Of a stretch of DNA of 64,000 nt, positions 24,956 through 57,724 are shown piece after piece. This stretch comes from Isurus oxyrinchus (lineage: Eukaryota). The stretch spans positions 1,922,001 to 1,986,000 of the forward strand of contig JANJGN010000064.1 in the NCBI GenBank assembly GCA_026770705.1. Direction: 5' to 3'. Positions within the stretch are counted from its first letter, which is position 1. Every line of letters starts with the position of its first letter. The position numbers were made by a program, and so were the translations under genes. The notes beneath the pieces are model-generated. The model was not told the DNA's origin, did not search any database, and worked only from the letters and a program-made list of their open reading frames with translations.

Positions 24956-25025
24956 ATGGAACGGCCTATAATTCTACAGATCAAGGATATTTACTATCCT
25001 GCGCTTGTAGCCATTGGTACTCCTG
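24956..25025 (+). CDS. GPR139/GPR142-like GPCR paralog 1, exon 1 (MERPIILQIKDIYYPALVAIGTP)
   Basis: ATG at 24956, 70 nt, phase-1 donor G|GTAAGT. The YYxxLxxxGxP TM1 motif is as in GPR139. Homologous to the exon at 54595. Confidence 0.9.
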
Positions 25026-25399
25026 GTAAGTCACTATTTCCTGCTGTCTGATAGCTGTTGAATATCTCAATTTTAATGATTATGTAACAGAATGAGAATT
25101 TCCTCCTTGCTTTGACAATTGTCCAGCGGGATCATTTGATGAACATACACGGGATATTTAGGAGTCCACCTCGCCGGTAAGGGGGACTGCTGGTCGGCAT
25201 ATTGTGAGATTCGATTTGCTCCCTATGATTTTCGCTGCTCCATTATTTTATCAGCGCGTAAGATCAAGTGACTTTATTTATTCACTCCTGGGATGTGGGC
25301 ACTGCTGGGTCTGTCAGCAGATGGCGTTGACCAAGCCATCCTCCTCCATTGTTTTACATTGTCTTATAGTGAACGGGGACTGCAATCTCTTGTTTCACT

Positions 25400-27550
25400 T
25401 AGCATGTATGAATTCGTTAATGGAAAATCTTGTTCCACGAAATTGCCGTAGATTCTTTCAAAGAGCTAACAGAGACGTTTGATAAGGGCACGACTTTTGA
25501 TATGGTCTCCATGGTCTTCCAAAAACCATTTGACACAATGTAACACAACAGACTTGTGACCAAGTTTGCAGCTCGTGCAAGAAATGGAACAGTAACAAGG
25601 TGGAGACGGAATTCCCTGAGCGAAAGGAAATGGAAAGTTTTCCTGAATAGATTTCTTTTCGGGCTGGATGTACCTTTGAACTGGAGTTCCCCAGGGATCA
25701 GTGTTGAGACACGTGCTTTCCCGAGATGCATTAATGAGCGAGACCCTTGAGTATAGCACAAAATGTTAATCCTTGCAGAGATATAAACCCTAGAGGTATT
25801 CCGAAATGTGTGGAGGATAGTGTAGAACATCAAAGGGACGTCGACAAGTTGGTGGAATGGCCGGACTAGAGGCAGATGAAGTTTAATACAAAATGATGTG
25901 AAGTGATTAATTTTTGTAGGAAGAAAATCGAAGGTCATTATAAAATAAAGTGTACAACTCTGAAGGGTGTGGGGGGACAGACAGTCTTTGTTGTATGTGT
26001 TCATAAATTGGTTAATGCTGAAAAAAAGCATGTTATCAAAGATCCTTGCCTTAAAATGAGAATGAAAATGACAATCACAAGACTAGCAAAGTCAGGGAAG
26101 TAACAACTTTATATTATCGGATGAGAGAGTGCTCAGTCACTGGCAAGTGGACTCTGATTGATAGAGGTGTTGTCATGGAGAAAGCACCTGTCGATGGCTA
26201 CTGCATTTTTTCAAATTTTAAACAATGCAGCTTGCAATTCACCAAGGCATTGCACCGAGGAAAGAAGGAAGGAATGGCTATTACTTATTTTGTTTCACTG
26301 AAACAGGAGCATTATGTGTACAAGTTCTTTCTGGCTGCAAAGAACGCTGCTCTGGTATTGATATATGTAGCTCCTTGTACACACAGAGGCGCCACACTGC
26401 GAACCCAACTCACAGTCTTAAATTGGTTTTCAGCACATTTTTTTCTCACTGAGGAATATTTAGCAAATGTTGTCCAATCGCAGAATCTCATCGAATTTGA
26501 ACACTGTGTTTTGAGTTTTGCAAACACGGGCTGGTTGGGTACGTCTGTACCTTGCCCGTTGTGAACAGGAGAAGGGAGATGCTGTTTGATAGGAGACCTA
26601 TTGAATCGTATCAAACAGCATGTCACTTCTGCTGTTGGAACATGCAAGGTGCAGACTGTACCCTAATAGACCGTGGTTGCAGAACTCAAATTACAGTGTC
26701 CAACATTAGATGTGATTCTGTGATCGGACAGCATTTGCTAAAAATTTCCCTAACATTGTTATTCATGTGATTGCCTACATGAGATCAAGAAGAAAAGATT
26801 CGACAAGATGTATTTTTTCCACAGTATTCAAGTTCTGCATTATAAGCGACCGTTTGCTCACGAATACTGAAAGGAACAGGACATGTTGACACTGCCCTGT
26901 CGTATCCTGGTGTTTATCAGTAAAGTCCAATAGCAAAAAGTTAATGTTGCATTTCAATAAGTCCTCAGTACGGCCTTACTTACAGTATTGTGTCCAGTTC
27001 TGGGTGCCACGGTTCAGGAACAATGCGAAGGCACTAGACAGGTTGCAGAACAGATTGAACAGACTGGTTTCAGGGATGAGGAAAAATGGTTACTAAGATA
27101 GATTGGATAAGTTAAGATTGTTTTTGTTAGAGAATGGAAGTTTGAGAGCAGGTTTGATGGAGGTATTCGAAATCATCAGGCGTTTGGACACAGTAGATAA
27201 TTGTCCCATTCGTGAATTGATCGAGAAAGAAAGGGAAAATGTGTGGAGCAATTACTAACAGAATGAGAAGTGATATGAGGAGAAATATTTCTGTGCAGCG
27301 ACTGTTCAGATTTGGAATGCACTGCCCGAGGCTGTGGAGGAGATCAATGCAACTGAAGCACTCACAGTTAATTAGACAGTTATTTGAGAGGAAGAATATG
27401 CAGGGTTACGGGAAGAAAGGATGGGGGTGGGCTGGAGTAAAGAGGGGGAAGCTGGGTTATGGAGAATAATACTAGATGGGTTGCTCATTTGGAGAACTGG
27501 TGCATACAGGAGGGGACGAATGGTCTCCTTCTGCACCATAACAATTCTGT
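25400..27550 (+). mobile_element. CR1 LINE in GPCR intron, interrupted by an unassigned insertion (~26040-26950)
   Basis: Degraded FQKPFD and GVPQG motifs at ~25500-25700. The CR1 resumes at ~26960 (GTATTGTGTCCAGTTCTGGGTGCCAC) and runs to its tail. Confidence 0.7.
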
Positions 27551-54594: not shown

Positions 54595-54664
54595 ATGATC
54601 CGGCCAACGATTCCACAAGTAACAGATATTTATTATCCAATTCTCGCAGCCTTTGGTATTCCCG
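54595..54664 (+). CDS. GPR139/GPR142-like GPCR paralog 2, exon 1 (MIRPTIPQVTDIYYPILAAFGIP)
   Basis: ATG at 54595, 70 nt, G|GTAAGT donor, homologous to 24956-25025. Confidence 0.85.
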
Positions 54665-56780
54665 GTAAGTCAGTGTTTTCTAATATCTTTTGAATATTTC
54701 ACTGTTAGTGATTATGTGGCTGATTGAAAGAATGTCTCACTGCCGAGTCATTTCACTGCCAAGAAAAATTGCTGAATGTCAGCGGGAATCCTAGACGTTC
54801 ACTGGGCCCGTGAGCCCTGGTACTGCTCGGCAGCTCCTCACGGGGAAGGAGAATGAGGTTAATTTCCCGCCCCAACAAAACCGTGTGGCCTACTGTCAAT
54901 GCCAATCATCTCATATGTAATGTTACCCATTCTGTACATTACATTGATAATTCCTACTAATTCCCGCCCAGCAGTCGGCGGGAAGTTATTTTGAGGAATA
55001 CGAAGCTACTCCTCATTCCTCCCTTGCAACGCATCTTTCCGAATCCACCGCCTCCCGTTCAGTTCCTGAGCGGATCCTTCAGACTGCATATAAAGAGACA
55101 AAGGCCAACATTTCGAATTACATTGAATAGTTTATCTTCTGCTGAAGGATCTACTTGAATTTATTGCGCTCTGTAACGGAATGTAAATTATATTGAATAC
55201 CGCTGGATTCGGATACATTTCCCGAGATTCTCATCGTCAAATAATCAGAGGGAACCGACTGTAAAATGATTTTAGTGTAACAATGACGATTTATCAAATT
55301 CACTCGGTGTATCACATGATAACGGCCAGATGACAGGAAGGTTGTTTGAAAGGAAATATATATATCATTTGACTGTTGAAATTCAGGAAGATATGCGAAT
55401 ATTCCATTTTACCTTTACAAAAGTTATACCGGTAACTGGACTGCCACTGCAAGGTGCTGATGGCTGACTTGCGCTGGACAGTTCCATGCAGCCTCAATCC
55501 AGCGACATGGACAGTGGTCAATGAAAGGGAATCGGGCGATATGTATGATGGATGGCTGGTCCGATTTAGCTACTTTTACACTGTTGTCCGAAGTCACCAT
55601 TGGCCCCAGCTGAGACATCCATGCATTAGGGACGGTGGTAGTGGGAGTTGTTTGGAGCTAGTCTCCGTTACTATTCTCCAGGCTAAATTCGACTGACCCT
55701 TCTTTCAGCACCATGAAAACATCAGACTGAAATTTACCGGGAGGACTGCAGATACCCTGTCCCGATACAGCGTTTCTGTCCACTGAGGATCACCTCCCTG
55801 AAAGAACCGAACTTCCCAAAGAACCCCGATGGAAGAAGACAATGGACAAAAAATAATTTTAAAAAATTATTGCAAAAAAATCAAACCAAAGTCAAAAAGA
55901 ATATAATTAACTTCTAATGGTATTCAGTAGAAAGTATTGATTATTGTTGAAGTACCTGATACAACAATGATAAGTCTCACGGATATCTCTGCTCGCCCAC
56001 CGCACACATGTGGCCCTGTTTTCAGTGCAAATGTCTCTCACAACTCCACGTTGCTCCAGCAGTGCTCAACCACTGTTCTTAGCGCAGGGTCTGATTCTCA
56101 AGTGGCCTCCAACAACCACTCTAATCTACTCCAGCTCCAAGGATATGATTATCAACAGCAAGCCTACTTTCATCTGGCCTCTTTAACTCGGGTCACAACA
56201 GTCCTGATAGCGGAGTTTTCCCAGACGCACTGTCACTCACCATTCAATAGCGCTCTCGTATACAGTATGATCAGCTCTGTGGCTCATAGCTTTTCTCAGG
56301 CTTTAGTCTTTTATGATTGTTCGCATACACAACCTGAGCGAGAACGGCTGGGCCTTGGTGGCTTCTGCTGAAAAGGAATTGAACTTTTTAGACTCCTGCT
56401 TGTTCTTTCCACATGCTAAAACCCGATCTCCCGAACTGTTTACACTTCCCAACCAGTTTCCATTCCCTTACCAATTACGTGCAGACATTGATTTCTCAGA
56501 AATCCGGTGTCCAACGAAGAGATCCCTGCCCCATAAATCTGGTTCCGATCTCTGTTACAGCGAGGGGCCGGACTCAAAAATACTGCCCTTGAAACTATTT
56601 AATCACAATAGAGTGCATATTCGTGTATTTATTTTCGGAGTTTCATCAACACTGGCCAATGTTACAAATTGGACACATGTCTATAACACTGGGTAGAAAT
56701 GTACAGTAACATTTCCCATAATAAATCTGTGGAATGTATCTGAGTGTCCATGTTAACTACTCTCTCATTTTTTCCCACAG

Positions 56781-57724
56781 CGAACCTTATGACAACCGTG
56801 ATTGTCTCCAGAGGAAATTGTGGCCTTTGAAAATGTATTTCATTCTATATGGTGTCCATGGCAATAGCCGATTTACTGGTCATGCTCAACAATGTTCTCG
56901 TGCATAAAGTCCTGAGTAAACGTTTTCCACATATAATCACGTCCTATACACCCATTTGCAAGTTCATAATGTACTCAATTAATACCAACCTGTATTTATC
57001 GGTGTGGTTTACAGTCTCCTTCACATTTGACCGGTTTGCATATATATGTAGCCACAAGTTTAAGACAAGGTATTGCACAGTGAGAACTGCGGCTACAGTT
57101 CTAACAACAATCTGTGTCCTCTCACTTTTACAGAACATACCAAATTGGTTTGCATTTGAACCTCAGCGAATAATCAACAATTCTCAATGGGGTTTCCAGC
57201 CCAGCCTGGATTTTTATACATCTCTTTTTGGTGTAATATTTATTTGGCTACAAAGTATTTTATTGACATGGATTCCTTTCTCTTTGATATTATTGTTAAA
57301 TTGTTTGACAGTGAGACGGATTTTAATAGCCAGTCGTGTCCGTAAGGAGCTCTGGGGTCAGAGGAGCGAGAATCATAGTGATCCTGAAATGCAGAACCGA
57401 AGGAAATCGATTATATTACTGTTCACTGTATCGGGTTCTTTTATACTGTTGTGGCTGACAGCAGTCGTTCGTACGTTAGTCAGTAGTATGCTCATTCATG
57501 TACGACCAGATTATGCAGCTCCTGCATATATCGCTACTGAAACCGGATACATGCTCATGTATTTGAGTTCGTGCACAAACACTTTTATTTATGCAGCTAC
57601 ACAAACTAAATTCAGGGAAGAGCTGAAGAAGATACTGAAATCTCCATGGACAATTATTCTGATACTGATAAAAAGTTGCAAAACGAAACTAACTGTTCCT
57701 GTTGTAAATAGAGTTAACTTGTAG
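56781..57724 (+). pseudogene. GPR139/GPR142-like GPCR paralog 2, exon 2 with a premature TGA at 56828-56830 (rest of frame intact)
   Basis: Acceptor TTTTTCCCACAG, then (A)NLMTTVIVSRGNCGL*KCISFYMVSMAIADLL. ORF 56849..57724 encodes TM2-TM7 with FTFDRF and NTFIYAATQTKFREE. Confidence 0.88.

What the first reader, a model, noticed from the sequence alone, without database searches (positions are those of the whole stretch)
24956..57724. Pair of divergent GPR139/142-like orphan GPCRs, suggesting a lineage-expanded receptor repertoire
Seen: two same-strand paralogs ~30 kb apart with identical architecture (70-nt exon 1, phase-1 intron after GxP, very short N-terminus). Intracellular motifs are conserved while TM2-ECL1, TM5 and ECL3 diverge; one gene is intact and one is disrupted. 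Established: mammalian GPR139 and GPR142 are single-copy receptors for aromatic amino acids (Trp/Phe); from memory GPR139 has its intron at the same LGLP|A position. Inference: this birth-and-death pattern resembles a chemosensory or immune-sensing repertoire whose ligands and cell types appear uncharacterised. It is the best candidate for an undescribed system here.
Basis: partly seen in the sequence, partly recalled or inferred. Interest (0 to 1): 0.8.

Follow-up and report, generated by a model that had tools for sequence, protein, structure and literature searches.

The report
Large orphan receptor repertoire of sharks
Two neighbouring shark genes, one intact and one with a premature stop, belong to a large family of cell-surface receptors in sharks and rays whose ligand pockets differ from copy to copy, as in smell or immune-sensing receptors, but whose ligands and cells are unknown.

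Summary
In detail: two same-strand, two-exon class A GPCR genes start 29.6 kb apart. One is intact (331 aa); the other has an in-frame TGA at codon 40. The window is from a shark; both genes have white-shark counterparts (87%, 78%). All 120 best homologues come from elasmobranchs, with 27-28 clusters each in three species. Databases label them 'probable GPR139', but they are not GPR139/142 orthologues. Human GPR139 scores 84 bits on the family profile, against 182-257 for a single-copy amphibian/sturgeon paralogue that is the sister group (99/91). The two genes keep 0 and 1 of five GPR139 Trp/Phe-pocket residues; that sister keeps 4. Pocket positions are 15-20 points less conserved than the other TM positions among paralogues, but more conserved among single-copy orthologues. 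Best reading: a birth-and-death repertoire of sensors with diversified ligands, more likely chemosensory than immune. Expression and ligands are untested. Ten literature searches found no description of the expansion.

The parts
24800..24882 (+). Gene 1 putative core promoter: 12-nt forkhead-like motif (label recalled) at -156 and TATA-like box at -84, shared with gene 2
   Evidence: 58/83 identical to gene 2 vs 40/74 at four-fold sites, p=0.048 (region chosen after looking)
24956..25025 (+). Gene 1 exon 1 (70 nt; short N-terminus and first half of TM1), phase-1 donor
   Evidence: the white-shark homologue P0001 starts with almost the same peptide
25026..29642 (+). Gene 1 intron (4617 nt, GT-AG)
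29643..30568 (+). Gene 1 exon 2 (rest of 7TM to stop); intact 331-aa receptor with W6.48 replaced by Ser and no ECL2 cysteine
   Evidence: model of the 87% identical homologue P0001 is a 7TM bundle, mean pLDDT 83
54446..54528 (+). Gene 2 putative core promoter (same 12-nt motif at -149, TATA-like box at -77)
54595..54664 (+). Gene 2 exon 1 (70 nt), phase-1 donor
54665..56780 (+). Gene 2 intron (2116 nt, GT-AG)
56781..57724 (+). Gene 2 exon 2; frame intact apart from one nonsense codon
56828..56830 (+). In-frame TGA at codon 40 (ICL1) of gene 2: recent pseudogene, null allele or assembly error
   Evidence: the white-shark counterpart P0044 is open, and gene 2 has no excess of departures from consensus (8 vs 10)

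Best explanation
The two genes are tandem members of a large elasmobranch repertoire of class A GPCRs of the wider GPR139/142 group. SHOWN: they are real two-exon 7TM genes; the family has tens of members per genome in chromosomal clusters with species-specific blooms; its sister is a single-copy gene of amphibians and sturgeon whose pocket resembles GPR139's; after duplication the pocket diversified while the inner TM halves, the TM6 and helix 8 motifs and a promoter core stayed similar. INFERRED: an ancestral amino-acid or peptide receptor was multiplied into a panel of sensors with different specificities. Each binds small molecules or short peptides inside the TM pocket, since there is almost no N-terminus, and all signal through a shared transducer (Gq/11 by analogy with GPR139) in a shared cell type. 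I rate chemosensory epithelial cells (nose, skin, gill or gut) at about 0.4 and leukocytes at about 0.25. Gene 2 is a recently inactivated copy.
For: 120 of 120 listed hits are from 15 elasmobranch species; 28, 28 and 27 clusters at 90% identity in Heptranchias, Pristiophorus and Heterodontus. 16 of 27 Heterodontus and 7 of 7 S. canicula clusters share one longest-contig length. The tree shows species-specific blooms; expansion plus amphibian/sturgeon clade has support 99/95 and 99/91. Pocket identity among paralogues is 0.48-0.55 vs 0.73-0.82 for inner TM halves (p<1e-5), but 0.74 and 0.94 vs 0.68 and 0.79 in the single-copy clades. At matched divergence the pocket is 0.15-0.20 below the rest in paralogue pairs and 0.07-0.25 above it in single-copy orthologue pairs; it is lower in 39 of 44 disjoint pairs. 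dN/dS of gene 1 vs gene 2 is 0.33. A basic residue at 6.51 is present in 54 of 54 low-copy relatives and 2 of 141 family members.
Against: No expression or ligand data were found (supplement searches gave no GPR139 entry or were unreadable). The 50 most specific genes of the catshark 'brain & olfactory epithelium' library held no GPCR (PMC11979771, passage), which is weak because single receptors are low in abundance. The pocket is not significantly more variable than other outer-TM positions (p 0.06-0.24). The contrast between within-species and cross-species pairs is not significant (p=0.064). Pocket dN/dS for the pair is about 0.53, below 1, so positive selection is not shown. True GPR139 and GPR142 were not in the trees.
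Confidence: 0.62

Rival explanations
1. Innate-immune or mast-cell/nociceptor sensor repertoire that works like MRGPR/MAS or formyl-peptide receptors and detects microbial or cationic peptides. This is the immune branch of the best explanation.
For: Cartilaginous fishes lack MAS1 and related receptors (PMC8455134, passage). The family has short N-termini and clustered birth and death. Mean pocket charge is about -1 against +2 in the sister clade; E7.36 is kept in 112 of 141 while basic 6.51 is lost. The nearest unnamed outgroups look like FMRFamide/Srw-type peptide receptors.
Against: No GPR139-labelled entry in the searchable supplements of two shark immune single-cell papers (small files only). 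Low-copy clade A also has an acidic pocket (-1.8), so charge is not diagnostic.
Confidence: 0.25
2. Mostly neutral copy-number growth in a repeat-rich region: redundant receptors for one endogenous ligand, with relaxed constraint on the outer face.
For: The window is otherwise retroelement debris. One of two copies is disrupted. Pocket dN/dS is below 1. The pocket is not clearly more variable than other outer-TM sites.
Against: Both genes have counterparts in another shark species, and gene 1's lineage extends to whale and zebra shark. dN/dS is 0.33. The pocket is less conserved than the other TM positions even in close paralogues (0.77 vs 0.92).
Confidence: 0.1
3. They are multiplied GPR139/GPR142 co-orthologues that still sense Trp/Phe.
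For: 112 of 120 hits are named 'probable/putative GPR139' by their sources. GPR139 is the best PDB match by sequence profile (1e-30 vs 1e-21 for the next). Some members keep His at 5x43 (35 of 113).
Against: GPR139 scores far below two other paralogue clades on the family profile (84 vs 145-257 bits). 139 of 141 members keep 2 or fewer of the 5 pocket residues; the window genes keep 0 and 1. Mutating F109, W241 or N271 removes Trp/Phe potency in GPR139 (PMC5430874, passages).
Confidence: 0.05

Closest known systems
GPR139 / GPR142 (class A orphan receptors activated by L-Trp and L-Phe)
   Same: Best solved relative by sequence; GxPAN at TM1, SxW in TM3, N7.49/Y7.53 without Pro at 7.50 in most; two coding exons reported for GPR139.
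   Different: GPR139 is highly conserved (70% human-zebrafish; PMC7318219 passage), whereas this family has tens of copies per genome. It lacks the F3.33/H5x43/R6.51/N7x38 pocket, usually lacks P6.50, and has a longer ICL3 and (in most members) a WGC hairpin in ECL2.
Single-copy amphibian/sturgeon 'probable GPR139' paralogue (clade C here: P0221 Pleurodeles, P0396 Xenopus, P0409 Acipenser)
   Same: Sister group in both IQ-TREE runs (99/95, 99/91); highest score on the family profile (182-257 bits); same short N-terminus.
   Different: One cluster per species in 20 amphibians plus sturgeon; near-invariant pocket (0.94) keeping F3.33, W6.48, K6.51, N7.39; only 24-31% identical to the window proteins.
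GPR210A/GPR210B of Rinne et al. 2019 (PMC6504862), extra GPR139/142-group subtypes in fishes and coelacanth
   Same: Names non-mammalian paralogues of this group; clades A and B found here (coelacanth, gar, teleosts, amphibians, also sharks or rays) may correspond. The mapping was not tested.
   Different: That paper has no occurrence of 'shark' and describes low-copy subtypes. Elasmobranchs hold their own members of clades A and B, outside the expansion.
Vertebrate chemoreceptor and sentinel repertoires (OR, TAAR, V1R, TAS2R, FPR, MRGPR) and nematode Srw receptors
   Same: Works like them in pattern: clusters, birth and death, short N-terminus, pocket variable among paralogues (pattern recalled for ORs). 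Srw-annotated clusters are among the feature neighbours; that Srw arose from peptide receptors is recalled.
   Different: Not a member by sequence: only Pfam 7tm_1 matched. Sensory or immune expression has not been shown.

Membership tests
Class A (rhodopsin-like) GPCR | 7TM fold and Pfam 7tm_1 above cut-off | tested here: met
   61 and 75 bits vs cut-off 30.5; model of homologue P0001 matches class A structures, TM-score about 0.7
Class A (rhodopsin-like) GPCR | Activation motifs N1.50, D2.50, DRY, CWxP, NPxxY | tested here: inconclusive
   N1.50, D2.50, DRF, N7.49 and Y7.53 present; 6.50 and 7.50 are Thr; gene 1 has Ser at 6.48. Signalling untested.
Wider GPR139/142 group | GPR139 is the nearest human receptor with a solved structure, by sequence | tested here: met
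   Foldseek alone does not single it out (rank 4 among near ties)
GPR139 or GPR142 orthologue | High identity and closer to GPR139/142 than to other paralogues | tested here: not met
   GPR139 gets 25.6 bits from gene 1 vs 100 and 99 for clade C and A members; 84 vs 145-257 on the family profile. GPR142 itself was not available.
GPR139 or GPR142 orthologue | Trp/Phe pocket F3.33, H5x43, W6.48, R6.51, N7x38 | tested here: not met
   0 of 5 and 1 of 5
GPR139 or GPR142 orthologue | Position in a tree containing true GPR139 and GPR142; conserved synteny; same intron position | not testable with these tools
   0 of 420 fetched proteins carried the GPR139/142 TM3 signature; no animal genome collection was open
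Birth-and-death receptor repertoire | Many paralogues per genome, clustered, with lineage-specific duplications | tested here: met
Birth-and-death receptor repertoire | Substantial pseudogene fraction | tested here: inconclusive
   1 of 2 copies in the window; protein databases do not show pseudogenes
Diversified-ligand sensor repertoire | Pocket variable among paralogues, conserved among orthologues | tested here: met
   the within-family contrast alone has p=0.064
Diversified-ligand sensor repertoire | Positive selection (dN/dS>1) at pocket sites | tested here: inconclusive
   only the window pair has DNA; pocket 0.53 vs 0.33 overall, dS about 0.95
Chemosensory receptor family | Expression in chemosensory cells, sparse or one per cell, activation by environmental ligands | not testable with these tools
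   no expression data found
Immune sentinel receptors (FPR/MRGPR-like) | Expression in leukocytes or mast cells; response to microbial or cationic peptides | not testable with these tools
   as above

The most novel reading that the evidence does not exclude
Sharks and rays carry an unrecognised, independently evolved chemoreceptor family, built from a GPR139-like amino-acid receptor and hidden under the label 'probable GPR139'. It would be as large as or larger than all their known chemoreceptor families together (65 genes in catshark; PMC6368271 Table 1; compare 105 member sequences in only the 28 nearest Heptranchias clusters), and expressed mosaic-fashion in nose, skin, gill or gut. That would change the view that sharks smell with a small, V2R-dominated repertoire.
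Probability: 0.3. Interest if true: 0.9.

Novelty: new variant of a known kind. Interest (0 to 1): 0.62.

Why it matters
Sharks are described as poor in GPCRs and olfactory receptors (PMC8455134, PMC6368271, PMC11979771; passages). A class A family with tens, perhaps more than a hundred, members per genome and diversified pockets does not fit that picture. It may be the missing chemosensory or immune-sensing repertoire, and the question can be tested at once with existing multi-tissue RNA-seq. The single-copy amphibian sister with a GPR139-like pocket gives an experimentally accessible proxy (Xenopus) for the ancestral ligand.

Tried and rejected
Third copy or remnant in the window: none by tblastn or six-frame profile scan. 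Other host genes: Pfam on 149 ORFs gave only the two GPCRs above cut-off, plus sub-threshold RT and integrase fragments and two chance-level hits. Selenocysteine or read-through at the TGA: Rfam found only one tRNA-like match in the window and no SECIS, the context is not the leaky UGA-CUAG type (recalled), and the family has Ser there, so I rejected it. Long decay of gene 2: rejected, as it departs from consensus no more than its intact counterpart. Fold search does not resolve the subfamily. Species of unnamed basal representatives could not be looked up (database off; one search gave only phylum), so holocephalan or other membership is open. Literature: ten searches found no paper describing the expansion. 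The white shark genome paper was not held, the catshark supplement with tissue data was unreadable, and bioRxiv supplements were closed; any of these, or a subscription paper, could already describe the family or its expression. Promoter similarity outside the core and the first 60 intron bases is at the neutral level (54-55%) and is not evidence of function.
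Full report
Observation. Gene 1 (exons 24956-25025 and 29643-30568) gives an open 331-aa frame. Gene 2 (54595-54664 and 56781-57724) has the same 70-nt first exon and phase-1 GT-AG intron, and one in-frame TGA at codon 40. The proteins are 181/331 identical and match Pfam 7tm_1. No third copy lies in the window; the rest shows dispersed repeats and retroelement fragments. Gene 1 vs gene 2 gives dN 0.32, dS 0.95, dN/dS 0.33, so the pair diverged under purifying selection.

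Source and family size. A search with gene 1's exon 2 found 1597 of 5111 candidates at E<=1e-5, of which I saw only the best 120. All 120 come from 15 shark and ray species (tally), and 112 are named 'probable/putative GPR139' by automatic annotation. Heptranchias, Pristiophorus and Heterodontus give 28, 28 and 27 clusters at 90% identity; my sums of the member column are 105, 63 and 52 sequences, which may include isoforms. 16 of 27 Heterodontus clusters and 7 of 7 S. canicula clusters share one longest-contig length, which suggests clustering. Gene 1's nearest relatives are white-shark P0001 and P0002 (87%); gene 2's is P0044 (78%, open frame), and P0001 and P0044 share a 3.48-Mb contig length. 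The window is therefore probably from a lamniform shark (inference). The 50%-clustered library gave 86 representatives at E<=1e-30, so the family is also deep.

Gene 2. It departs from family consensus no more than its intact counterpart (8 vs 10 of 166 conserved columns), so the stop is recent, polymorphic or an assembly error. Restart at Met47 would lose TM1 (inference).

Placement. Human GPR139 is the best solved relative by sequence, so the label is right at the group level. Two further searches gave three low-copy paralogue clades: A (coelacanth, ray-finned fish, amphibians, reptiles and sharks), B (coelacanth, gar, reedfish, amphibians, rays) and C (20 amphibians, one cluster each, plus sturgeon). 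On a profile built from the expansion alone, C scores 182-257 bits, A 145-229, B 89-125, ten unnamed invertebrate-looking receptors 98-140 and GPR139 84. A 227-row FastTree (short, fragmentary and over-long representatives were left out) and two 41-row IQ-TREE runs put the window genes inside one clade (97/88 and 93/91) whose sister is C (99/95 and 99/91). True GPR139/142 were not among the 420 proteins fetched and are not in the trees. The deepest members of the expansion are unnamed, so 'elasmobranch-only' rests on the 124 named members. Rinne et al. 2019 (PMC6504862; passages) named extra fish and coelacanth subtypes GPR210A/B without sharks; they may be clades A and B, which I did not test.

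Pocket. Mutagenesis places Trp/Phe binding in GPR139 at F3.33, H5x43, W6.48 and N7x38, with R6.51 from modelling (PMC5430874; passages). I mapped these by motif and by the alignments. Gene 1 keeps 0 of 5 and gene 2 keeps 1; 139 of 141 family members keep 2 or fewer; clade C keeps 4 in 20 of 21, counting Lys for Arg. A basic 6.51 is invariant in A, B and C (54 of 54) and present in 2 of 141 family members. Over 32 standard class A pocket positions (list recalled), paralogues within a species are 0.48-0.55 identical against 0.73-0.82 at inner TM halves, whereas orthologues of A and C are 0.74 and 0.94 against 0.68 and 0.79. Binned by divergence, the pocket lies 0.15-0.20 below the other TM positions in paralogue pairs and 0.07-0.25 above in A and C orthologue pairs. 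It is lower in 39 of 44 disjoint nearest paralogue pairs and about equal in 14 cross-species sister pairs (0.81 vs 0.83). Against this reading: the pocket is not significantly more variable than other outer-TM sites (p 0.06-0.24), the within- vs cross-species difference has p=0.064, and pocket dN/dS of the pair is about 0.53.

Structure. The model of P0001 is a seven-helix bundle starting at residue 5, with an ECL2 hairpin and helix 8 (pLDDT 83), and matches peptide-type class A receptors without singling one out. With almost no N-terminus, ligands must bind within the helices (inference). Both window genes lack the ECL2 cysteine found in 100 of 113 near relatives.

Regulation. The 250 nt upstream of the two ATGs align with score 87 against a background maximum of 36 in 1930 draws, but most of that is residual duplication homology at the neutral level. 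Only the core from a shared 12-nt motif to the TATA-like box (58/83, p=0.048) and intron bases 7-60 (38/47, p=0.003) exceed four-fold-site identity (40/74), and both regions were chosen after looking. This is a weak hint of shared cell-type control.

Mechanism. Shown: gene structure, expansion, sister relationship, pocket diversification. Inferred: a GPR139-like ancestral receptor for amino acids or peptides was multiplied into sensors of different specificity with a shared output; Gq/11 is assumed from GPR139 (PMC7318219; passages). Where they act is open. Chemosensory cells are favoured because GPR142 senses Trp/Phe in gut and pancreas and the known catshark chemoreceptor set is only 65 genes (PMC6368271; Table 1 passage). 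An immune role is the main rival, since cartilaginous fishes lack MAS1-related receptors (PMC8455134; passage).

Novelty. The proteins are in public annotation under a misleading name. Ten searches found no paper describing the expansion; 'GPR139' with 'shark' gave 4 listings, of which I opened one. Papers seen as passages only: PMC12294341, PMC11979771, PMC8455134, PMC6504862, PMC8514136, PMC5430874, PMC7318219, PMC6368271, PMC12498223, bioRxiv 10.64898/2026.10.27.761883. Supplements searched by term with no GPR139 entry: PMC8455134, PMC13188829, PMC10529500, PMC10770119, PMC11589584. The white shark genome paper was not held and the catshark expression supplement was unreadable; both may bear on the claim. 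Verdict: a real and apparently undescribed receptor radiation of a known kind, interest 0.62, rising to 0.9 if sensory expression is shown.

Noticed in passing
window 24800-24811 and 54446-54457: An identical 12-nt forkhead-like motif (label recalled) about 70 nt upstream of the TATA-like box in both genes; these are its only two occurrences in the window.
   Followed up: partly
window 25032-25085 and the matching start of the gene 2 intron (from about 54671): The first 60 intron bases are more alike between paralogues (38/47) than four-fold sites (40/74); possible regulatory or splicing element.
   Followed up: partly
residue 162 of both genes (exon 2): Both genes, and 13 of 113 near relatives, lack the ECL2 cysteine while mostly keeping C3.25, so the usual TM3-ECL2 disulfide is lost in this subgroup.
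   Followed up: partly
gene 1 residue 248 (TM6): Toggle-switch W6.48 is Ser in gene 1 and both white-shark counterparts, against Trp in 131 of 141 family members; activation may differ.
   Followed up: no
proteins P0221, P0387-P0405, P0409: A conserved single-copy amphibian/sturgeon receptor, annotated 'probable GPR139', keeps F3.33, W6.48, K6.51 and N7.39; a candidate further aromatic amino-acid receptor.
   Followed up: partly
proteins P0272 and P0370: Clade A receptors are annotated as TMEM183A isoforms in zebra shark and a frog, which suggests a conserved neighbour gene and merged gene models.
   Followed up: no
window 817-889: tRNA-like match (Rfam RF00005, 54.8 bits) next to a repeat that recurs at 8441-9371; probably a tRNA-derived SINE head or pseudogene.
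   Followed up: no
window 45791-46036 (+), 63308-63926 (-), 34568-36200 (-): Retroelement debris: RT fragment, integrase C-terminal fragment of an LTR element, and a Penelope-like RT region (last label recalled, no Pfam hit).
   Followed up: no
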